Both the position numbers and the translations under genes were made by a program. 64,000 nucleotides of DNA, taken from contig CACHBR010000002.1 in NCBI GenBank assembly GCA_902578115.1, positions 59,863 to 123,862 of the forward strand, read 5' to 3'. Shown in pieces: positions 10,082 to 63,366 of this stretch (position 1 is the stretch's first letter; every line of letters starts with the position of its first letter). The notes beneath the pieces are model-generated. The model did no database searches. It was not told the origin of the DNA and worked only from the letters and a program-made list of their open reading frames with translations. Source of the DNA: an uncultured Pelagibacteraceae bacterium. GTDB lineage: Bacteria > Pseudomonadota > Alphaproteobacteria > Pelagibacterales > Pelagibacteraceae.

Positions 10082-11245
10082 ATGTCATCTAAAATAAAAG
10101 TTTTACAAGTAATTCCAAGACTTGGTTACGGAGGTGCAGAGACAGGTTGTTATGACCTTGCTCATTATTTAGCCGAGAAAGATTGTAAATCTTACATAGT
10201 TACAAGTGGAGGACCATTACTAAAATTTATTAAAAAAAATAAAGTCAAGGTCATTAGGTTACCAGTTCATTCAAAGAATCCTCTGCTTATGATTATTAAT
10301 GCTATAATTCTTTTAGTTTTAGTATTTATTTTAAACATTGATATTATTCACGCCCGAAGTAGAGCACCCGCTTGGTCTTGTTGGTTGGCGAATCTTCTAA
10401 CACGGAGAAAATTTGTTACTACTTTTCATGGCACATATAATTTTAAAAGCAGAATTAAAAAGTTTTACAATTCTATTATGCTTAGGTCTGAATTAACTAT
10501 TGCTGGATCTAATTTCATTTTTGACCACATACACACTAATTATAGTAGTCATTTAAGTAAAAACAAAAAATTGTTAGTAATATTTAGAGGTATAAATACT
10601 GAATATTTTAACAAATCAAATGTTACTGAAGAAAAAGTAGAAAGATTTAATTCCACATTAAAGTTAGATGTTCAAACTTTTAAAATTCTTTTACCTGGAA
10701 GATTGACTAAGTGGAAAGGTCAAGAAATGTTTTTAGAGGCTATAAAATTGCTAAAAACAAAATATTATAAAACAAATTTTAAGGCCGTAATATTAGGCTC
10801 ACATCAAGGTCGTAAAGTTTTTTTCAAAAAACTTATTTCAATGGTTGATCAATACCAATTGAAAGATAATGTTATATTTTTAAGCTTTTGTGAGGAAATG
10901 CCTGTTGCCTATAAGAGTGCAGATGTAATTGTATCTTCATCTATAGAGCCCGAAGCTTTTGGAAGAGTTGCAGTAGAGGCACAAGCAATGGAAAAACCAA
11001 TTCTCGCAAGTGATTTAGGTGGATCAAAAGAGACTGTAATTAATGGTAAATCAGGATTTTTATTTAAAAATGGAGACCCAAATTCTCTTGCACAAAATTT
11101 AAATTATATTATTGAAATGGATAAAGACAAGTTGCAATCAATTGGAAATGAGGGTAGGAAAAATATATTGATAAAATTTGATGTAGAAAAAATGTGCCAA
11201 TCAACATTTGCTGAGTATAAAAAATTGTTAAAACAAAAACATTAA
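10082..11245 (+). CDS. Glycosyltransferase, GT4 (GT-B fold) family
   Basis: 387 aa. N-terminal GGAETG is present, and the C-terminal E-x7-E region reads EAFGRVAVEAQAMEKPILASDLGG. Confidence 0.85.
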   Translation: MSSKIKVLQVIPRLGYGGAETGCYDLAHYLAEKDCKSYIVTSGGPLLKFIKKNKVKVIRLPVHSKNPLLMIINAIILLVLVFILNIDIIHARSRAPAWSCWLANLLTRRKFVTTFHGTYNFKSRIKKFYNSIMLRSELTIAGSNFIFDHIHTNYSSHLSKNKKLLVIFRGINTEYFNKSNVTEEKVERFNSTLKLDVQTFKILLPGRLTKWKGQEMFLEAIKLLKTKYYKTNFKAVILGSHQGRKVFFKKLISMVDQYQLKDNVIFLSFCEEMPVAYKSADVIVSSSIEPEAFGRVAVEAQAMEKPILASDLGGSKETVINGKSGFLFKNGDPNSLAQNLNYIIEMDKDKLQSIGNEGRKNILIKFDVEKMCQSTFAEYKKLLKQKH

Positions 11246-13165
11246 ATGCCGAATATTACTTTACCAGATGGAAAAAAATTAAGTTTTAAGAACAATGTAA
11301 CTGGATATGAGGTTGCTGAAAAAATTAGTAAGTCACTTTCAAAACAGGCTCTTATAGTAAGTGTGGATGGAGTGTTGAAAGATTTAAGTTTTTCAATTCA
11401 AAAAGACTCTTCTGTTAAAATCATAACTAGCAAAGATAAAGATGGTCTCGATGTAATCAGACATGATGCAGCACACATAATGGCAATGGCCGTTCAAGAA
11501 TTATTTCCAGGAACCCAAGTTACTATAGGTCCTGTTATTGAGAATGGTTTCTTCTATGATTTTGCAAGAAAGGAACCATTTACTAAAGATGATTTAAAAA
11601 AAATTGAGAAGAAAATGTCAGAGATTATCGACAGAGATGTTAAAACAAAACGTGAAGTATGGGACAGAGATAAAGCAATAGCGCATTTTAAAAAAATTGG
11701 CGAAAAGTATAAAGCTGAGATTATTGAGAGCATCCCTAAAAATGAAGAATTATCAATTTATCATCATGGAGATACTTGGCACGATCTTTGTAGAGGTCCG
11801 CATTTAGTTTCATCAGGAAAAATAGGAAAAGCTTTTAAATTAACAAAAGTTTCTGGAGCTTATTGGAGAGGGGACTCAAATAATGAAATGCTACAAAGAA
11901 TTTACGGAACATGTTGGAGTTCTAAAAAAGAATTAGATGAATATTTACACAGACTAGAAGAAGCAGAAAAAAGAGATCATAGGAAGTTAGGTAAAGAGAT
12001 GGATCTTTTTCATTTCAGGGAGGAAAGCCCTGGATCTGTTTTTTGGCACGAGAAGGGCTGGAATTTATTTCAACGGCTTGTAGAGTACATGAGATTAAAG
12101 CAAAGAAATGCTGGATATAAAGAGATAAGCACACCAGAACTTTTAGATAAAAGTCTTTGGGAAAAATCAGGACACTGGGAGAAATTTGGTCATCACATGT
12201 TTACATCAGAAACACCAGACGAAAAAGTTTTTGCTGTGAAACCAATGAATTGTCCTGGTTGTGTTCAAGTATTTAATCAAGGTCTTAAAAGTTATAGAGA
12301 TTTACCTTTAAAGTTATCTGAATTTGGAAAAGTTCATAGATATGAACCATCTGGAGCATTACATGGCCTTCTAAGAGTTAGAGCTTTTACTCAGGATGAT
12401 GCACATATCTTTTGTACCGAAGAGCAGATAACAGATGAATGTATTAGTGTTACAAAATTAATATTGGATATTTACAAAGACTTGGGATTTGAAAAAGTAT
12501 TCCTTAAGTATTCTGACAGACCAGAAAAAAGAGTTGGTGATGATAAAATCTGGGATAAGTCAGAAAAAGCTTTGCTTGCGGCAATTAAAAAAACAAAATT
12601 AGAATATACTATAAATAAAGGAGAGGGTGCTTTTTACGGTCCTAAAATAGAATTTGTTTTGAGAGATGCCATAGGAAGGGACTGGCAATGTGGAACTTTA
12701 CAAGTTGATTTGAATTTACCAGGAAGACTTGGTGCAACTTTCGTAGACAAAGATGGAACTAAAAAAGTACCTGTAATGTTACATAGAGCTCTTTTTGGTT
12801 CTTTAGAGAGATTTATAGGTATAATTATTGAAAACTATGCAGGCAAACTTCCATTTTGGCTATCACCTTCACAAGTTGTTGTATTGCCTATAGCCGAAGA
12901 GCACAATGACTATGCAAAAAAAATATTTAAAGAACTCTTTAAAGAGGGTATAAAATGCGAAGTGGATTTAAGAAATCAAAAAATTAATTATAAAATAAGA
13001 GAACATTCTTTATCAAAAGTTCCTGTACTATTAATTTGTGGAGGAAAAGAAGTAATAGATAAAAGTGTAAGTATACGTAAACTTGGATCTGAAAAACACG
13101 AAGTTAAAAAATTCGAAAAAGCTCTTAAAGAATTTAAATCATCAAATAACCTACCAATTAAATAA
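11246..13165 (+). CDS. thrS: Threonyl-tRNA synthetase
   Basis: 639 aa. It has an N-terminal TGS-like domain, an editing-domain HxxxH (RHDAAHIMA), a class II core (FRVRAFTQDDAHIF; HRALFGSLERFIG) and an anticodon-binding C-terminus. Confidence 0.97.
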   Translation: MPNITLPDGKKLSFKNNVTGYEVAEKISKSLSKQALIVSVDGVLKDLSFSIQKDSSVKIITSKDKDGLDVIRHDAAHIMAMAVQELFPGTQVTIGPVIENGFFYDFARKEPFTKDDLKKIEKKMSEIIDRDVKTKREVWDRDKAIAHFKKIGEKYKAEIIESIPKNEELSIYHHGDTWHDLCRGPHLVSSGKIGKAFKLTKVSGAYWRGDSNNEMLQRIYGTCWSSKKELDEYLHRLEEAEKRDHRKLGKEMDLFHFREESPGSVFWHEKGWNLFQRLVEYMRLKQRNAGYKEISTPELLDKSLWEKSGHWEKFGHHMFTSETPDEKVFAVKPMNCPGCVQVFNQGLKSYRDLPLKLSEFGKVHRYEPSGALHGLLRVRAFTQDDAHIFCTEEQITDECISVTKLILDIYKDLGFEKVFLKYSDRPEKRVGDDKIWDKSEKALLAAIKKTKLEYTINKGEGAFYGPKIEFVLRDAIGRDWQCGTLQVDLNLPGRLGATFVDKDGTKKVPVMLHRALFGSLERFIGIIIENYAGKLPFWLSPSQVVVLPIAEEHNDYAKKIFKELFKEGIKCEVDLRNQKINYKIREHSLSKVPVLLICGGKEVIDKSVSIRKLGSEKHEVKKFEKALKEFKSSNNLPIK

Positions 13166-58559: not shown

Positions 58560-59853
58560 AATATTAAATACAAAATCACAAGATTTCAAAAAGAAATTTA
58601 ATTATTATTTAAATATAAGAAGGAAATATTCTTCAAGTAAGATAAGCGTTGTAAAAAAAATTGTTAATGACGTGAAGAAAAATAAAGACAAATCATTAAT
58701 AAAATATGAGAAAAAATTTAACAATATTAAAAGTTTAAATGTAAATAAATTATTTTTTTCAAAAAATGAGATTGAAAAAAGTGTTAAAACACTAGACAAA
58801 AAAATTAAAAATTCAATTGATATAGCCTTTAAAAGAATCTTTAATTTTCATAAAAATCAAAAATTTAAAGGTTTCAAAATTAAAGATAGTTTTAATAATT
58901 CTTTAAGCTATAGATCAAAACCAATTAATAAGATAGGAGTATACGTTCCTGGCGGTAGGGCAAGCTACCCAAGTTCAGTTTTGATGAATTGTATACCAGC
59001 TTTAATTGCTGGAGTTAAAGAAATTTATATGACAGTGCCTTCTATTAATGGAAAAATAAATCCGGGAGTTTTATATGCAGCAAAAAAATGTAAAGTTAAA
59101 AAGATTTTTAAACTCGGGGGAGCACAAGCTATTGCAGCTTTAGCTTTTGGTACAAAAACAATAAATAAAGTTGATAAAATTGTTGGTCCAGGAAATGAGT
59201 ATGTTGCACTAGCAAAAAAAGAAGTTTCAGGTGTATCTGGTATTGATATATTTGCTGGGCCATCAGAAGTTACTATTATTGCAGATAAAAACTCTAATCC
59301 AGAATGGATTTCCGCAGACCTAATCGCTCAATCTGAACACGATGAAATGTCACAATCTATTTTAGTATCCGATAGTAAATATTTAATTGATAAGGTTCAA
59401 TATTATCTTATTAAGCAACTTAAATTCTTACCAAAAAAAAAGATCGCATCAATAAGTTTAGGTAAATTTGGTTTAGCAATTTTAGTAAGAAATTCACGTG
59501 AAGTTTCAGAAATAACTAATATAATTGCTCCGGAACATCTTCAAATTTATACTAAAAAACCAGATAGATATTTAAAATCAATTGATAACGCTGGATCAAT
59601 ATTTTTAGGCGCGTATTCACCCGAAGCAGTTGGTGATTATATTGCAGGACCTAATCATGTTCTCCCAACATCAGGCACTGCAAAATTTTCATCTGGTTTA
59701 TCTGTTTTAGATTTTCTTAAAAGACAATCAATAATTAAAATTTCTAAAAGAGGTATTGAAAAATTAGGTCCATCCGTTGTAACCTTATCAAAATATGAAA
59801 ATCTCTACGGGCATGCTAATTCTGTAAAACTTAGGCTTAAAGAAAGGGAGTAA
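58552..59853 (+). CDS. hisD: Histidinol dehydrogenase
   Basis: 433 aa. It contains [29 protein letters not shown] and [13 protein letters not shown]. Confidence 0.95.
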
Positions 59854-59854
59854 T

Positions 59855-60070
59855 TTGGCTAAACAAGAAAAGATAGAATTTAAGGGAAAAGTAACAGAAT
59901 TATTACCAAACGCTATGTTTAGAGTTAAGCTTGAAAATAATCATGAAGTTTTGGCTCATACGGCTGGAAAATTGAGAAAGAATAGAATAAGAGTCTTAGC
60001 CGGTGATCAGGTCTTAGTTGAAATGACTCCTTACGATTTGACTAAAGGTAGGATTACTTTTAGATTTTAG
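59855..60070 (+). CDS. infA: Translation initiation factor IF-1
   Basis: 71 aa starting at TTG. The sequence is [70 protein letters not shown]. Confidence 0.94.
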
Positions 60071-60077
60071 GATATTT

Positions 60078-60149
60078 GGCCTTGTAGCTCAGTAGTAGAG
60101 CAGTACCCTGAAAAGGTATGTGTCGTTTGTGCGATTCAAACCAAGGCCA
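60078..60149 (+). tRNA. tRNA-Phe (anticodon GAA) with a non-canonical D-loop and T-loop; CCA not encoded
   Basis: Acceptor GGCCTTG/CAAGGCC. D-arm GCTC-AGTAGTA-GAGC. Anticodon arm GTACC-CTGAAAA-GGTAT. T-arm GTTTG-TGCGATT-CAAAC. Discriminator A. The D-loop lacks GG, and the T-loop has G where the conserved U55 belongs. Confidence 0.75.
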
Positions 60150-60204
60150 CCTCTAACAATAATTCTGGACATCACATAGGTTTGACTGGTATATCCGGAA
60201 AAAT

Positions 60205-60933
60205 ATGAACTTTTCTTTAGAGATAACTATGAAAACAGACCTTTCTGATTTACCAAAGGTTAAAGATGTTTACATAACAATGCTTCCAGGAAATGATTTT
60301 AGGGAGGTTGCAAAAAAAGCAAAAGAGCTAGTCCAATCCGGGTTTAATCCAGTACCCCACTTTCCTGCGAGATCAATTAAAAATTTAGATGAGTTAAAGC
60401 AGTACGTTTCTATGTGTAAAGATTTCGGCGTAAAACAAGCTTTGGTAATAGGTGGAAGTGCTGAACCAATAGGTGATTACCACTGCTCGTTGCAGATTTT
60501 AGAAACAGGATTATTTGAGGGGTTTAGGATAGGAATTGCTGGACATCCTGAGGGGTCCCCTGATATATCGGAATCTGATTTGGAGAAAGCGATGAAAGAT
60601 AAAAAACCATTCGCAGATTACATTGTCACCCAGTGGCTTTTAAATCCAGAACCAATAAATAAATTTATTTCAAAACAAAGTTTGCCAGTTCATGTTGGAA
60701 TTACTGGACCTTTAAAGCTTACAAGTTTAATAAAATTTGCAAATATTGTTGGAGCTAAAAATTCACTTAACTTTATTAAATCTAATGCCTCTAAAGCCAT
60801 AAATTTGTTGAAACCATCGGATCCTAATGAATTAATTGATCAAGTTAAGAAATCAACAGGTCATTTTCATATTTATACTTTTGGTGGATTAAAAGAAACC
60901 AACAAGTGGTTAGTTAAAAATAATTATGCCTAA
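60205..60933 (+). CDS. Methylenetetrahydrofolate reductase (MetF/MTHFR-fold) family protein, short form
   Basis: 242 aa. From memory it is collinear with E. coli MetF blocks: FSLEI (FSFEFFPP), PHFPARSI (PHLTCIDA), IGIAGHPEGSP (VAAYPEVHPEA), YIVTQWLL (AITQFFF) and HFHIYTFGG (FHFYTLN). Confidence 0.72.
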   Translation: MNFSLEITMKTDLSDLPKVKDVYITMLPGNDFREVAKKAKELVQSGFNPVPHFPARSIKNLDELKQYVSMCKDFGVKQALVIGGSAEPIGDYHCSLQILETGLFEGFRIGIAGHPEGSPDISESDLEKAMKDKKPFADYIVTQWLLNPEPINKFISKQSLPVHVGITGPLKLTSLIKFANIVGAKNSLNFIKSNASKAINLLKPSDPNELIDQVKKSTGHFHIYTFGGLKETNKWLVKNNYA

Positions 60934-62296
60934 AAAGGTTCCCAATTCTTACAAAGTTGAAAAAGTAAATTACGATAAAGTTAAACACGAAACTTCAGTT
61001 GATCAATCAGATAGACAAATTCCATATAATTTAAGACAAAGCGGCCCCACCAAAGTAGAAATGCTTATCTCAACTCGAGTAAGAAAATCTCCTTATTGGC
61101 ATTTATCTATGAAAGCTGGTTGTTGGAGAGCTACAGTTTATAATCGTATATACCATCCAAGAGGATACGTAAGACCTGAAAAGGGTGGCGCGATGGTTGA
61201 ATATAAAGCTATAAAAAATCACGTTACAATGTGGAACGTAGCAGTTGAAAGACAAATTCGTGTTAAAGGCCCAGACGCCGAAAAATTTGTTGATTATGTA
61301 ATTACAAGAGATGCCACAAAAATTTCAACTATGCGAGGTCGTTACGTGATACTTTGCAATTACAAAGGTGGTGTTCTTAACGACCCTGTTTTGTTAAGGG
61401 TTGAAGACGACGAATTTTGGTTTAGTTTGTCAGACTCTGACATTGGTTTATATCTTCAAGGTGTTAATGCTGACAAAAGATTTAATGTCGAAATAGATGA
61501 AATCGATGCTTGTCCAGTTCAAATACAAGGACCAAAGTCTAAAGCTTTAATGAAAGATCTGGTAGGAGACCAAGTAGATATGGATAATATTCCATTCTAT
61601 GGTTTGGCTAAAGCGAAAATAGGTGGGAGAGATTGTGTAATTTCACAATCAGGTTTTTCAGGCGAAGCTGGATATGAAATTTATTTGAAAAATGCAACTT
61701 TGTACGCAGAGGATATGTGGAATACTGTTCTAAAGGCTGGAAAAAAACATAAATTGATGGTCATAGCACCAGCACACCACAGAAGAATACAAGCTGGAAT
61801 ACTATCTTGGGGGCAGGATTTAGATCACGAACACAACCCATTTCAATGTAACCTTGGTTATCAAGTTTCATTATCAGGTAAAGGAGCATGGGATAAACAA
61901 ACAGACTATGTAGGTAAAGATGCATTGGAGAAAATGAAAGAACAAATCAAAAATGGAAAAAAACCATATAAACTTCAACTTGTAGGTTTAGAAATGGGTG
62001 GTAAGCCTATCGAAGATTATGCAAATGATTTTTGGTTAATATCAAATGATAAAGGAGGAAAGCCTGTAGGATTTATTACTTCTCCTTGGTACCATCCTGA
62101 AAAAGGTACAAATATAGCTATGGGCTATGTTCCATTTGAGGGAAATTTAAACGCCAATGGTTTTCCAATTGGAAATTTTGGAAAAAAATACAAAGTACAT
62201 TTGCCAAAAAAATACTCAAACAAGCCTGTTAATGCGACAGTTGTACCAATACCATTTACTCAGTCTTACAATAAGAATACTAGAGAAACAAACTAG
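60926..62296 (+). CDS. GcvT-fold aminomethyltransferase-family protein, DmdA-like THF-dependent demethylase candidate
   Basis: 456 aa. Family blocks are RVRKSPYW, HVTMWNVAVERQIRVKGPDAEKFV, LNDPVLLRVEDDEFWFSLSDSD, VQIQGPKS and ISQSGFSGEAGYEIYL. It has about 45 extra N-terminal residues and a longer C-terminus than typical DmdA. It overlaps the MetF-like gene by 8 nt. Confidence 0.78.
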   Translation: MPKKVPNSYKVEKVNYDKVKHETSVDQSDRQIPYNLRQSGPTKVEMLISTRVRKSPYWHLSMKAGCWRATVYNRIYHPRGYVRPEKGGAMVEYKAIKNHVTMWNVAVERQIRVKGPDAEKFVDYVITRDATKISTMRGRYVILCNYKGGVLNDPVLLRVEDDEFWFSLSDSDIGLYLQGVNADKRFNVEIDEIDACPVQIQGPKSKALMKDLVGDQVDMDNIPFYGLAKAKIGGRDCVISQSGFSGEAGYEIYLKNATLYAEDMWNTVLKAGKKHKLMVIAPAHHRRIQAGILSWGQDLDHEHNPFQCNLGYQVSLSGKGAWDKQTDYVGKDALEKMKEQIKNGKKPYKLQLVGLEMGGKPIEDYANDFWLISNDKGGKPVGFITSPWYHPEKGTNIAMGYVPFEGNLNANGFPIGNFGKKYKVHLPKKYSNKPVNATVVPIPFTQSYNKNTRETN

Positions 62297-62321
62297 TTAA
62301 TAAACCTTAATTTAAGTTTTT

Positions 62322-62738
62322 ATGATAGATAAATTTGGAAACGTATTTTATTTAATAATCTTCTTGGCACACTTTATTATAGTTGGTAGCTACGCTTATC
62401 AATTAGTCTTTGATACTAAAAAATTTCTTAAGGATAGAGGGGTTGATAAAACCGCTACTTTGATCACGAGATTTGCAGGCTCATTCATGGTTGCCACTGT
62501 TTTAATGGCAATCTATGTTGCTTTTATTAGATCAGGTGGTTTAGTTGCTACTTGGGCTTTCTTTAACCTAGTTTTTATAATGAACGTTTCAATATTAATC
62601 GTAAATTTTTATACATTGAAGATTGATAAAACAGGATTAACAAAAAAAACTAGAAATGATGGAATTTATGCTCCGATAGTTCTTGTTATCATTAGTGCTG
62701 TTCTTTGCTACGGTTTAGCAGATAAGATATACGTTTAG
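62322..62738 (+). CDS. Hypothetical 4-TM membrane protein
   Basis: 138 aa with four hydrophobic helices. No motif is recognised. Confidence 0.55.
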   Translation: MIDKFGNVFYLIIFLAHFIIVGSYAYQLVFDTKKFLKDRGVDKTATLITRFAGSFMVATVLMAIYVAFIRSGGLVATWAFFNLVFIMNVSILIVNFYTLKIDKTGLTKKTRNDGIYAPIVLVIISAVLCYGLADKIYV

Positions 62739-62739
62739 T

Positions 62740-63366
62740 TTACTGAAGCGTATCTTTATCATTTAGATCTTCATAAAATCCAAACTTGGTTATTTCATTT
62801 AAAGTACTTGCTGCCTCATTTAAATCAGGTATTTCTAAAACTTTTTGTTTTTCGCTCACAGAAAATGGGGAAATCATTGCTAATGTATAAATTTGTTCAA
62901 AAGCTTTTAGTTTTGAAATTTCTTTCCAATCAATCAATACTCCTTGTTGATTAAAATATTTTTTCGAATTATCGATTAATTTTTCAAGTATTTCGTTTTT
63001 AACTGCATACTCTTTTAATTTCATATCTTCTTTAAAATCATCATAATTAACAATGAATTCACGATAAAGTTTATCATTATTTATTTCTTCGTCTATTTTA
63101 AATCTTGTTAAACCATTCAGATTAATTAAAATTCTTCCATCGGAAGTTCTTTCATGCCTGTCAATTTTACCTAAACAACCAACTCTGAAAACATCGCCTT
63201 CTACCTTTTTCGTTTGTACCATACCAATATATTTTTCACCTTTTAAAGCATCTTCTATCATGCTGACATATCTTCTTTCAAAAATATTTAATGGTAAATT
63301 TGTTTTTGGAAAAAATATCGCCCCTCTTAAGGGGAACACAGAAATTTTTTTAGGAAAATTATTCAT
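62740..63366 (-). CDS. LON N-terminal (substrate-binding) domain protein
   Basis: 208 aa. The sequence FPLRGAIFFPKTNLPLNIFERRYVSMIEDAL is typical of stand-alone LON-domain proteins. Confidence 0.8.
   Translation of the reverse strand: MNNFPKKISVFPLRGAIFFPKTNLPLNIFERRYVSMIEDALKGEKYIGMVQTKKVEGDVFRVGCLGKIDRHERTSDGRILINLNGLTRFKIDEEINNDKLYREFIVNYDDFKEDMKLKEYAVKNEILEKLIDNSKKYFNQQGVLIDWKEISKLKAFEQIYTLAMISPFSVSEKQKVLEIPDLNEAASTLNEITKFGFYEDLNDKDTLQ

What the first reader, a model, noticed from the sequence alone, without database searches (positions are those of the whole stretch)
60205..62738. A short MetF-like gene is translationally coupled to a long DmdA/GcvT-family gene, suggesting a THF-dependent demethylase module of unknown substrate
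The 242-aa MTHFR-fold protein overlaps the 456-aa aminomethyltransferase-fold protein by 8 nt (ATGCCTAA). The larger protein has the blocks seen in DMSP demethylase DmdA: HVTMWNVAVERQIRVKGPDAEKF, LNDPVLLRVEDDEFWFSLSDSD, VQIQGPKS and SGFSGEAGYEIYL. It is nevertheless about 85 aa longer than the canonical DmdA as I remember it (about 370 aa), with an N-terminal extension of about 45 aa and an extended C-terminus. Pairing a THF-dependent demethylase, which makes 5-methyl-THF, with an MTHFR-type enzyme, which interconverts methyl- and methylene-THF, follows the same logic as ligM-metF in Sphingobium lignin-derived aromatic O-demethylation. This could be a dedicated route that feeds methyl groups from an unidentified methylated compound into C1 oxidation. 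Candidates include an osmolyte, a methoxylated aromatic or a methylated sulfur or amine compound. A 4-TM membrane protein follows at 62322-62738.
Basis: partly seen in the sequence, partly recalled or inferred. Interest (0 to 1): 0.6.

Follow-up and report, generated by a model that had tools for sequence, protein, structure and literature searches.

The report
SAR11 methyl-folate demethylase and oxidase pair
This is the conserved SAR11 gene pair first pointed out in 2011, a DmdA-like methyltransferase overlapping a short MetF-like methyl-folate oxidase; its substrate is still unproven, but gene neighbourhoods and co-occurrence point to glycine betaine.

Summary
A 242-aa MTHFR-fold gene (60205-60933) overlaps a 456-aa GcvT/DmdA-family gene (60926-62296) by 8 nt.

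The pair matches SAR11_1264 (metF) / SAR11_1265 (AMT) of 'Ca. Pelagibacter ubique'. Sun et al. 2011 described this adjacency and the methyl-THF logic, so the idea is published. This scan also noted the pair before on other SAR11 DNA.

- The short MetF is closest to the Sphingobium SYK-6 'type 4' CH3-THF-oxidising MTHFR (PDB 7XG9, E 2e-33). It is the only MTHFR homologue found in this genome assembly.
- The long protein lies outside the DmdA clade. The genome has its own canonical dmdA and gcvT. The N-terminal extension is conserved across phyla, so it is not a mis-called start.
- In 151 Pelagibacteraceae genomes, both genes occur in the same 93, adjacent in every listed pair (88 of 93 have listed coordinates).
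- Outside SAR11, orthologues are unlinked to metF. Instead, 26 of 29 loci sit next to DMGDH/SARDH-like, soxBDAG, GbdR-like, GbcA-like or DgcA-like genes.

Best reading: a betaine-type methyl:THF methyltransferase, most likely acting on glycine betaine, coupled to a methyl-THF oxidase. The substrate is inferred, not shown.

The parts
60205..60933 (+). Short MTHFR-fold gene (242 aa), a type-4-like CH3-THF-oxidising MTHFR; inferred orthologue of SAR11_1264 'metF'
   Evidence: ORF. PDB 7XG9 (S6MTHFR) at E 1.8e-33. AlphaFold pLDDT 87, with best Foldseek hits 7xg9/7xlf at TM 0.8. The conserved FS-x-E N-terminal strand (E6) supports the ATG at 60205 as the start. It is the only MTHFR homologue in the assembly.
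60926..62296 (+). DmdA-sister aminomethyltransferase-fold gene (456 aa); inferred orthologue of SAR11_1265. Proposed onium-methyl:THF methyltransferase, with glycine betaine the favoured substrate
   Evidence: Pfam GCV_T plus GCV_T_C. DmdA model 244 bits against a cut-off of 410. Best PDB hit is Pelagibacter DmdA 3tfh at E 2e-45. Orthologue clade is separate from DmdA. Neighbourhoods.
60926..60933 (+). 8-nt overlap ATGCCTAA (stop of the MetF-like gene inside the start of the AMT), implying translational coupling
   Evidence: Sequence read directly. The same arrangement is seen in 55 of 75 related loci by first-start ORF calling; the remainder reflect longer upstream start calls.
62322..62738 (+). 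138-aa hydrophobic ORF 25 nt downstream, probably not part of the module
   Evidence: No Pfam or NCBIfam family. A homologue is present in only 11 of 80 related SAR11 loci. No terminator-like site lies between it and the AMT, so co-transcription in this genome is possible.

Best explanation
This is a two-enzyme methyl-harvesting module. The 456-aa protein is a DmdA-sister member of the GcvT fold. It is proposed to transfer a methyl group directly from an 'onium' donor to N5 of tetrahydrofolate, giving 5-methyl-THF. The most likely donor is glycine betaine, which would yield dimethylglycine. The overlapping 242-aa protein is a minimised relative of the Sphingobium 'type 4' MTHFR. It would oxidise 5-methyl-THF to 5,10-methylene-THF, using an acceptor other than NAD(P)+. 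That regenerates THF and feeds the methyl carbon into FolD/Fhs/FDH oxidation or into C1 biosynthesis.

Shown here: folds, family placement, co-occurrence, adjacency and neighbourhoods. Inferred: the methyl-transfer chemistry (by analogy with DmdA), the direction of the MTHFR reaction (by analogy with S6MTHFR), and the substrate. My odds are about 0.8 for 'methyl-THF-forming demethylase plus methyl-THF oxidase' and about 0.5 for glycine betaine specifically.
For: (1) MetF-like. Its closest solved relative is S6MTHFR (E 1.8e-33, TM 0.8 and 31% identity, against 16-20% identity for canonical MTHFRs). S6MTHFR oxidises CH3-THF and barely reacts with NADH (PMC11868366). The SAR11 protein keeps E6, T25, L27-P28, Q143, F178 and Y224-x-F-G-G-L.

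(2) No other sink for methyl-THF. No Pfam MetE domain (PF01717) and no MetH/BHMT-type homocysteine-binding domain (PF02574) were found in the assembly. The single pterin-binding hit is a 211-aa frame at a contig end. 'Ca. P. ubique' lacks metH and metE (PMC5069961).

(3) Tight coupling in Pelagibacteraceae. Both genes are in the same 93 of 151 genomes, adjacent in every listed pair, and neither was found in genera g2 (0/10), g315 (0/12) or g316 (0/4). Two genomes have a DmdA-like gene but neither member of the pair.

(4) AMT. It is nearest to DmdA, which performs a redox-neutral methyl transfer giving 5-methyl-THF (PMC5395565). It is nonetheless a separate orthologue group, at 46% identity or more within the group against 31-41% to DmdA-like proteins.

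(5) Substrate clue from neighbourhoods. In 29 orthologue loci outside core SAR11 (Alpha- and Gammaproteobacteria, Latescibacterota, Dehalococcoidia), 26 have methylamine or betaine catabolic neighbours. These are a DMGDH/SARDH-like DAO+GcvT protein (14 loci, 10 of them within about 220 nt), soxB/soxA (7-8), a GbdR-like AraC+DJ-1 regulator (7), a GbcA-like Rieske oxygenase (5), a DgcA-like flavoprotein (3), and GMC oxidoreductase, aldehyde dehydrogenase or GBBH-like dioxygenase. In 16 SAR11 loci a DMGDH-type gene lies about 2 kb downstream, and in 16 loci fhs lies about 2 kb upstream.

(6) Missing-step logic. Every genus of the sample with the pair also has DMGDH-type genes (FAO_M), and genera g2, g315 and g316 have neither. 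In genus g310, 10 of the 11 pair-bearing genomes have a DMGDH-type gene and none has a PF02574 (BHMT/MmuM-family) gene. Of the 7 DMGDH-bearing genomes without the pair, 6 have PF02574. This window's genome has a DMGDH-type gene and soxA but no PF02574.

(7) Expression. In HTCC1062 grown with glycine betaine, sulfur limitation raised bhmT about 30-fold and lowered SAR11_1264/1265 mRNA 5-10-fold (PMC5069961). This is compatible with re-routing betaine methyl groups.
Against: - No biochemical evidence exists for any member of this AMT group. No paper describing a THF-dependent glycine betaine demethylase was found.
- A quaternary ammonium is a poorer methyl donor than a sulfonium, so a direct attack by THF N5 is chemically less easy than in DmdA (general chemistry, my inference).
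- Five orthologue loci already carry a GbcA-like Rieske oxygenase. That would make a second glycine betaine demethylase redundant there.
- Most Pelagibacter (genus g3) genomes have both the pair and PF02574 genes, so the complementarity is not general. Related genomes are not independent samples.
- NCBIfam could not tell which SAR11 PF02574 proteins are BHMT; all score below the cut-offs.
- The sulfur-limitation data equally fit induction by DMSP or its products.
- The MetF-like protein departs from S6MTHFR at Asp107 (Ser85), Arg78 (Ser57), Cys219 (Val182) and Pro268 (Thr225). Its reaction direction, flavin content and electron acceptor are therefore not secure.
Confidence: 0.55

Rival explanations
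1. The AMT demethylates another quaternary-amine or sulfonium osmolyte, giving 5-methyl-THF. Candidates include choline, carnitine or gamma-butyrobetaine, proline betaine, beta-alanine betaine, homarine or trigonelline, dimethylsulfonioacetate, and S-methylmethionine.
For: The family placement and MetF coupling are the same as for the best explanation. Some loci carry a GBBH-like dioxygenase, a GMC oxidoreductase, an aldehyde dehydrogenase, Rieske oxygenases (Stc2/CntA/GbcA-like) or a DgcA/N-methylproline-demethylase-like flavoprotein. These fit other betaines as well as glycine betaine.
Against: The commonest and closest neighbours are DMGDH/SARDH-like and sox genes, which act downstream of glycine betaine. 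The choline, carnitine and gamma-butyrobetaine routes all funnel into glycine betaine.
Confidence: 0.2
2. The AMT is a second, divergent DMSP demethylase (an isozyme of DmdA).
For: DmdA is the closest characterised relative, at 38-40% identity. GOS abundance is similar to that of dmdA (PMC3160333). The mRNA falls when DMSP is limiting (PMC5069961).
Against: The DmdA equivalog model scores 244 bits against a cut-off of 410. The AMT is separate from the DmdA-like group in the tree. The Trp reported as DMSP-specific ('W171' in PMC7487153, which is W197 in 3tfh numbering) is Phe in at least 90% of orthologues. Orthologues occur in Latescibacterota and Dehalococcoidia MAGs, and next to N-methyl catabolic genes. 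A DmdA-like paralogue of R. pomeroyi (SPO1648) is reported as non-functional for DMSP, although I did not test whether it belongs to this group (PMC12992908).
Confidence: 0.1
3. The AMT removes the second methyl group of the DMSP pathway (MMPA to 3-mercaptopropionate), as Sun et al. 2011 speculated.
For: This is a published speculation, based on relatedness to DmdA, adjacency to metF and similar abundance (PMC3160333). The enzyme for that step is still unidentified.
Against: A thioether is not an activated methyl donor for a DmdA-type SN2 transfer (chemistry, my inference). The neighbourhoods outside SAR11 are N-methyl, not organosulfur. The pair co-occurs with DMGDH-type genes, and two genomes with a DmdA-like gene lack it.
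Confidence: 0.04
4. The long protein is a GcvT-like methylene-THF-forming helper. It would capture formaldehyde or iminium from neighbouring oxidative demethylases. The MetF-like enzyme would be an ordinary reductase.
For: The protein has the GcvT fold. Its neighbours include DgcA-like and Rieske demethylases, which release formaldehyde.
Against: In SAR11 it is tied one-to-one to a MetF-like gene, even though no methionine synthase that would use methyl-THF is present (PMC5069961). It is much closer to DmdA than to GcvT (244 against 138-160 bits). The MetF-like protein is closest to a CH3-THF oxidase.
Confidence: 0.06

Closest known systems
SAR11_1264 (metF) / SAR11_1265 (gcvT-like AMT) of 'Ca. 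Pelagibacter ubique' HTCC1062 (Sun et al. 2011, PLoS One, PMC3160333)
   Same: Same lineage and same adjacency of a metF homologue with an AMT that is the closest paralogue of DmdA. It has a near single-copy distribution in Pelagibacter, and the same methyl-THF oxidation logic applies. The window's pair is 81-83% (AMT) and 71-74% (MetF-like) identical to the pair in the sampled genus that holds most complete Pelagibacter-sized genomes.
   Different: Nothing essential: this is an orthologue in another SAR11 genus. Orthology to the named locus tags is inferred, because no named HTCC1062 sequence was available. The published guess for the substrate (MMPA) differs from the one favoured here.
LigM/DesA + S6MTHFR ('type 4' MTHFR) of Sphingobium lignivorans SYK-6 (Yu et al. 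2025, Commun Biol, PMC11868366; PDB 7XG9/7XLF)
   Same: A GcvT-fold, THF-dependent demethylase that makes 5-methyl-THF, genetically linked to an MTHFR that runs in the oxidative direction. S6MTHFR is the closest solved structure to the short protein. The Glu, Gln, Leu-Pro, Phe and Y-x-F-G-G-L motifs are kept.
   Different: The demethylase here belongs to the DmdA branch, not the LigM/DesA branch (33-44 bits on those models). The MTHFR is 46 residues shorter. It has Ser for Asp107, Ser for Arg78, Val for Cys219 and Thr for Pro268. The gene order is metF first with an 8-nt overlap. Yu et al. did not include DmdA-type enzymes or SAR11 in their survey.
DmdA, DMSP demethylase (PDB 3TFH; NCBIfam NF009133)
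   Same: It is the closest characterised relative, at 38-40% identity. It shares the GCV_T plus GCV_T_C architecture and the G-Y-E-x-Y folate-binding motif.
   Different: The window protein scores below the family cut-off and forms a separate clade. It has a conserved N-terminal extension of about 40 aa, plus internal and C-terminal additions of about 47 aa. It has Phe in place of the Trp reported as DMSP-specific. The genome has its own bona fide DmdA.
Known glycine betaine demethylating systems: BHMT (homocysteine acceptor), GbcAB/BmoAB (Rieske oxygenase), MtgB/MtgA (corrinoid-dependent, to THF)
   Same: The proposed net reaction, glycine betaine to dimethylglycine, feeds DMGDH/DgcAB and sarcosine oxidase. 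The MtgB/MtgA route also ends in methyl-THF.
   Different: No sequence relationship. A direct, corrinoid-free transfer to THF by a GcvT-fold enzyme has not been described in the literature I could search.

Membership tests
DmdA (DMSP demethylase, NCBIfam NF009133 equivalog) | Score at or above the curated cut-off (410 bits) | tested here: not met
   244.2 bits. The genome's own DmdA on contig C5 scores 503.3.
DmdA (DMSP demethylase, NCBIfam NF009133 equivalog) | Falls inside the DmdA clade in a phylogeny | tested here: not met
   The DmdA-like group (80 rows, including the genome's own DmdA) is one side of a branch with SH-aLRT 100, and all 33 orthologues of the window protein lie on the other side. 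Identity is 31-41% to the DmdA-like group against 46% or more within the orthologue group.
DmdA (DMSP demethylase, NCBIfam NF009133 equivalog) | Trp reported as DMSP-specific ('W171' of PMC7487153, equal to W197 of 3tfh) beside the G-Y-E-x-Y folate motif | tested here: not met
   SGWSKQGGYEVY in 3tfh aligns to SGFSGEAGYEIY. F244 is conserved in at least 90% of 33 orthologues, and E251 and Y253 are invariant.
GcvT (glycine cleavage T protein, TIGR00528 / NF001567) | Score at or above the curated cut-offs (235.85 / 300 bits) | tested here: not met
   138.3 and 159.9 bits. The genome has a separate gcvT of 362 aa on contig C7.
LigM / DesA aryl O-demethylases (NF047885, NF047633) | Score at or above the cut-offs (580 / 800 bits) | tested here: not met
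   32.8 and 43.7 bits.
Canonical MTHFR (Pfam PF02219) | Score at or above the gathering cut-off (24 bits) | tested here: not met
   16.8 bits. The fold is nevertheless an MTHFR TIM barrel.
Type 4 (S6MTHFR-type) CH3-THF-oxidising MTHFR (Yu et al. 2025) | Closest to S6MTHFR rather than to type 1-3 MTHFRs | tested here: met
   7XG9 at E 1.8e-33, against E 0.01 or worse for all other MTHFR chains. Foldseek gives 31% identity and TM 0.8, against 12-20% identity for the others.
Type 4 (S6MTHFR-type) CH3-THF-oxidising MTHFR (Yu et al. 2025) | Catalytic residues Glu21, Asp107 and Gln175 | tested here: inconclusive
   Glu corresponds to E6 (FS-x-E strand, conserved in at least 90% of 29 relatives) and Gln to Q143 (invariant). 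Asp107 aligns to Ser85. That position is G, S, D or A among relatives.
Type 4 (S6MTHFR-type) CH3-THF-oxidising MTHFR (Yu et al. 2025) | Loop beta2-alpha3 Leu48-Pro49, buttressed by Arg78 (blocks NADH) | tested here: inconclusive
   L27-P28 are present, but Arg78 aligns to Ser57. The preceding Arg (R56) is invariant.
Type 4 (S6MTHFR-type) CH3-THF-oxidising MTHFR (Yu et al. 2025) | Helix alpha8 Phe215/Cys219 and loop beta8-alpha11 Tyr267-Pro268-Phe269-Gly-Gly-Leu | tested here: inconclusive
   F178 is kept and Cys is replaced by V182. The loop reads Y224-T225-F226-G-G-L, so Pro268 is Thr, the residue of type 1/2 enzymes (PMC11868366).
Type 4 (S6MTHFR-type) CH3-THF-oxidising MTHFR (Yu et al. 2025) | Genomic coupling to a THF-dependent demethylase | tested here: met
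   An 8-nt overlap with the DmdA-sister gene. Both genes are in the same 93 of 151 Pelagibacteraceae genomes. In a sample of 401 Alphaproteobacteria, relatives were found in 23 of 34 genomes with an AMT or DmdA-like gene, against 51 of 367 without.
Type 4 (S6MTHFR-type) CH3-THF-oxidising MTHFR (Yu et al. 2025) | FAD-bound; oxidises CH3-THF; no NADH activity | not testable with these tools
   Needs purified protein.
SAR11_1264/1265 orthologue pair (Sun et al. 2011) | metF homologue adjacent to the AMT that is the closest paralogue of DmdA, in a SAR11 genome that also has dmdA and gcvT | tested here: met
SAR11_1264/1265 orthologue pair (Sun et al. 2011) | Direct sequence identity to the HTCC1062 locus | not tested
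   No named HTCC1062 sequence was available, and the cluster look-up gave no locus tags.

The most novel reading that the evidence does not exclude
The DmdA-sister protein is a direct, corrinoid-free glycine betaine:tetrahydrofolate N-methyltransferase. This enzyme activity has not been described. Together with a minimised CH3-THF oxidase, it would give SAR11 and scattered other bacteria a homocysteine-independent route from glycine betaine to dimethylglycine. It would replace BHMT in SAR11 lineages where no BHMT/MmuM-family gene was found, including this genome.
Probability: 0.45. Interest if true: 0.7.

Novelty: already known. Interest (0 to 1): 0.42.

Why it matters
SAR11 is the most abundant heterotroph in the ocean, and methyl-group oxidation is a large part of its energy budget. 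The substrate of SAR11_1265 has been open since 2011. If the enzyme demethylates glycine betaine straight onto THF, three things follow. It would be a new reaction for the GcvT/DmdA fold. It would explain how SAR11 lineages in which no BHMT-family gene was found could still use betaine. It would also change how betaine, DMSP and methionine fluxes are modelled from metagenomes, in which this gene is often counted as a DmdA-like or GcvT gene. The short MetF-like protein would extend the recently defined CH3-THF-oxidising MTHFR type to marine oligotrophs, and would show which of its 'defining' residues are dispensable.

Tried and rejected
- A riboswitch or other RNA element upstream: the Rfam E-value scan of 59500-63000 found only tRNA-Phe at 60078-60149.
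- Promoter and terminator scans: promoter-like sites are at the chance level, and there is no terminator after the AMT.
- Physical complex of the two proteins: one complex-prediction job with both alignments gave no verdict. This is not evidence either way.
- One Pfam batch on neighbours in high-GC loci was largely wasted on spurious wrong-strand ORFs. Neighbour families were then defined by clustering and phmmer probes instead.
- Telling BHMT from MmuM among the SAR11 PF02574 proteins with NCBIfam: all three tested types fall below every cut-off. The complementarity is therefore stated for the PF02574 family only.
- Confirming the HTCC1062 locus tags by cluster look-up: no tags were returned.
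- Literature searches for a characterised member of the AMT group, or for a THF-dependent glycine betaine demethylase, found none.
- Housekeeping MetF reading: rejected, see the rivals.
- Mis-called start as the cause of the extra length: rejected, because the N-terminal segment is conserved. However, AlphaFold models residues 1-53 with pLDDT below 50, so its structure and role remain unknown.


Full report
OBSERVATION

They overlap by ATGCCTAA. A 138-aa hydrophobic ORF follows at 62322-62738. All quoted peptide blocks are present.

A tRNA-Phe(GAA) ends 54 nt upstream of the first ATG. No known riboswitch was found. Promoter and terminator pattern scans are uninformative.

WHAT THE GENOME IS

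The window lies in a 0.96-Mb, 82%-complete, AT-rich assembly of the Pelagibacteraceae. The assembly encodes:
- a bona fide DmdA (369 aa, 503 bits on NF009133 against a cut-off of 410);
- a GcvT (362 aa);
- a DMGDH/SARDH-type protein (820 aa);
- a SoxA-type protein.

The only MTHFR homologue found is the short gene of this finding. No MetE domain and no MetH/BHMT-type homocysteine-binding domain were found. The single pterin-binding hit is a 211-aa frame at a contig end.

PRIOR KNOWLEDGE

The pair corresponds to SAR11_1264 (metF) and SAR11_1265 (gcvT-like AMT) of 'Ca. P. ubique' HTCC1062. Sun et al. 2011 (PMC3160333) noted four things:
- the adjacency of the two genes;
- the precedent of the Methylobacterium CM4 MetF, which oxidises methyl-THF;
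- the close relationship of SAR11_1265 to dmdA;
- its roughly 1:1 ratio to recA in GOS metagenomes.

They speculated that SAR11_1265 demethylates MMPA. Smith et al. 2016 (PMC5069961) found both mRNAs 5-10-fold lower under sulfur limitation, while bhmT rose about 30-fold. The medium contained 500 nM glycine betaine. They also state that the organism lacks metH and metE.

This scan had also noted the same pair on other SAR11 DNA, with one follow-up reaching the glycine betaine reading. I reached that reading from my own searches before seeing that note.

THE SHORT PROTEIN

Pfam MTHFR is sub-threshold (16.8 bits). PDB 7XG9/7XLF, the MTHFR of Sphingobium lignivorans SYK-6, matches at E 1.8e-33, while every other MTHFR chain is at E 0.01 or worse. 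An AlphaFold model built on 29 relatives (pLDDT 87) is a TIM barrel. Its best Foldseek hits are 7xg9/7xlf (TM 0.79-0.80, 31% identity), followed by canonical MTHFRs at 16-20% identity.

Yu et al. 2025 (PMC11868366) showed that S6MTHFR oxidises CH3-THF, hardly reacts with NADH, and defines a 'type 4' MTHFR that pairs with THF-dependent demethylases (LigM, DesA, CmuAB, Dmt). They did not consider DmdA-type enzymes or SAR11.

Mapping their residues through the HMMER alignment and a family alignment gives:

Kept:
- Glu21 = E6, in a conserved FS-x-E-x-T strand. This also supports the ATG at 60205 as the true start.
- Thr46 = T25
- Leu48-Pro49 = L27-P28
- Gln175 = Q143
- Phe215 = F178
- Tyr267 and Phe269-Gly-Gly-Leu = Y224 and F226-G-G-L

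Changed:
- Asp107 to S85
- Arg78 to S57
- Cys219 to V182
- Pro268 to T225

The Asp position is also variable (G, S, D or A) in relatives from other Alphaproteobacteria. The SAR11 protein is best described as a minimised, divergent member of the S6MTHFR-like branch. Its flavin content, reaction direction and electron acceptor are inferred, not shown.

THE LONG PROTEIN

It has GCV_T plus GCV_T_C domains. The best family model is DmdA, but below the cut-off (244 against 410). GcvT, Tdm, SoxA, DesA and LigM models score lower. The best PDB hit is Pelagibacter DmdA 3tfh at E 2e-45.

Whole-genome searches show a clean gap. Orthologues are 46-100% identical, while DmdA-like proteins are 31-41% identical. 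In a maximum-likelihood tree of 117 sequences, the DmdA-like group, including the genome's own DmdA, is split from all 33 orthologues by a branch with support 100. Both groups together are separated from GcvT, DMGDH and SoxA domains.

The extra length is real. Positions 30-59 hold 13 invariant residues across orthologues from several phyla, although AlphaFold does not model residues 1-53 with confidence. The Trp that Hernandez et al. 2020 (PMC7487153) give as DMSP-specific is Phe here and in at least 90% of orthologues. The G-Y-E-x-Y folate motif is invariant.

COUPLING OF THE TWO GENES

Among 80 related SAR11 loci, the MetF-like gene is immediately upstream on the same strand in all 75 where the upstream DNA exists. 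The wider flanks differ between subclades (hisD, tRNA-Phe, secA, fhs, an ABC transporter, a DMGDH-type gene), so the pair behaves as a unit.

In a sample of 151 Pelagibacteraceae genomes that are at least 85% complete:
- The orthologue and the MetF-like gene occur in the same 93 genomes, adjacent in every pair whose coordinates are listed (88 of the 93).
- Neither was found in genera g2 (0/10), g315 (0/12) or g316 (0/4), nor in 26 of 37 genomes of g310.
- Two genomes have a DmdA-like gene but not the pair.

The MetF-like gene is therefore not housekeeping, and it tracks this AMT rather than DmdA.

Outside Pelagibacterales the two are not adjacent. S6MTHFR-like genes were still found in 11 of the 16 sampled alphaproteobacterial genomes that have the orthologue. 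They were found in 23 of 34 genomes with any AMT or DmdA-like hit, against 51 of 367 without. Related genomes are not independent, so these counts are descriptive only.

SUBSTRATE CLUES

Orthologues occur in other Alphaproteobacteria, Gammaproteobacteria, Latescibacterota and Dehalococcoidia MAGs. In 29 such loci, 26 carry betaine or methylamine catabolic genes nearby:
- a DMGDH/SARDH-like DAO+FAO_M+GcvT protein in 14 loci (10 within about 220 nt);
- soxB/soxA in 7-8;
- a GbdR-like AraC+DJ-1 regulator in 7;
- a GbcA-like Rieske oxygenase in 5;
- a DgcA-like flavoprotein in 3;
- GMC oxidoreductase, aldehyde dehydrogenase, GBBH-like dioxygenase and a MetE-like protein in two genomes.

Some SAR11 subclades place a DMGDH-type gene about 2 kb downstream and fhs about 2 kb upstream.

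In the Pelagibacteraceae sample, DMGDH-type genes are present in every genus that has the pair and were not found in g2, g315 or g316. In genus g310:
- 10 of the 11 pair-bearing genomes have a DMGDH-type gene, and none has a PF02574 (BHMT/MmuM-family) gene;
- 6 of the 7 DMGDH-bearing genomes without the pair do have PF02574.

This window's genome and most of its congeners have a DMGDH-type gene and the pair but no PF02574. A step from glycine betaine to dimethylglycine is thus missing there unless the AMT provides it.

Caveats:
- Assemblies are incomplete and lineages are related.
- NCBIfam cannot say which PF02574 proteins are BHMT.
- Most Pelagibacter genomes have both systems.
- Five loci already hold a GbcA-like oxygenase.

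MECHANISM PROPOSED

By analogy with DmdA (redox-neutral SN2 methyl transfer to N5 of THF; PMC5395565), the AMT would take a methyl group from an onium donor, most likely glycine betaine, and form 5-methyl-THF. With no MetH or MetE, THF can only be recovered by oxidation. The overlapping MetF-like enzyme would provide this, feeding FolD, Fhs and formate dehydrogenase (pathway as drawn by Sun et al. 2011).

The reciprocal regulation of bhmT (up) and SAR11_1264/1265 (down) under sulfur limitation fits competition for betaine. It fits a DMSP-linked role equally well.

VERDICT

New here are:
- the assignment of the short protein to the S6MTHFR-like branch, with a residue-level membership test;
- the co-occurrence and adjacency statistics;
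- the comparative case for glycine betaine, which makes a 15-year-old open question directly testable.

No experiment supports the substrate. One complex prediction gave no verdict.

Noticed in passing
window 60078-60151: tRNA-Phe(GAA) ends 54 nt before the MetF-like start codon. No separate promoter stands out, so the pair may be read through from the tRNA transcript. The tRNA scores 65 bits on Rfam.
   Followed up: partly
G459:C1:347910-349245 and G519:C1:842069-843404 (genus g3 genomes); G404:C3:73697-74421: In two complete Pelagibacter-type genomes the AMT orthologue is split into two open frames (residues 13-170 and 164/168-454), while the MetF-like gene is intact. In another genome the MetF-like gene carries an in-frame TAG while the AMT is intact. 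These are possible recent pseudogenes of one partner.
   Followed up: no
Genus g310 of the Pelagibacteraceae sample: The MetF-AMT pair (11 genomes) and PF02574 homocysteine-methyltransferase genes (22 genomes) never occur in the same genome among the 37 sampled. DMGDH-bearing genomes have one or the other.
   Followed up: partly
L095:8007-9263 and L096:8001-9251 (G300, contigs C4 and C2): One alphaproteobacterial genome has two copies of the AMT orthologue with identical protein sequence over the aligned region, in different neighbourhoods. One is next to a DMGDH-like gene. The other is next to GMC oxidoreductase, MetE-like and GBBH-like genes. Each lies near a 391-aa HTH (transposase-like) ORF, which suggests a recent mobile duplication.
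   Followed up: no
L147-L188 (Actinomycetota MAG loci, e.g. L152:8872-10119 and 10272-11474): Many Actinomycetota loci carry two adjacent DmdA-like paralogues (about 385-415 aa each) that form two separate subclades in the tree. Their function is unknown.
   Followed up: no
Genus g3 genomes, e.g. G484:C2:476132-493426: In Pelagibacter-type genomes, a 347-aa PF02574 gene and one or two DMGDH/SARDH-type genes lie 3-15 kb from the MetF-AMT pair. Together they form a loose methyl-group oxidation neighbourhood.
   Followed up: partly
window 62322-62738: The 138-aa four-segment hydrophobic ORF has no family in Pfam or NCBIfam and is conserved only among close relatives (11 of 80 loci).
   Followed up: partly
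G017:C83:2443-4843: In one alphaproteobacterial genome, an S6MTHFR-like gene lies about 700 nt from a DmdA-like gene (41% identity to the window AMT). MetF coupling therefore also occurs with the DmdA branch outside SAR11.
   Followed up: no
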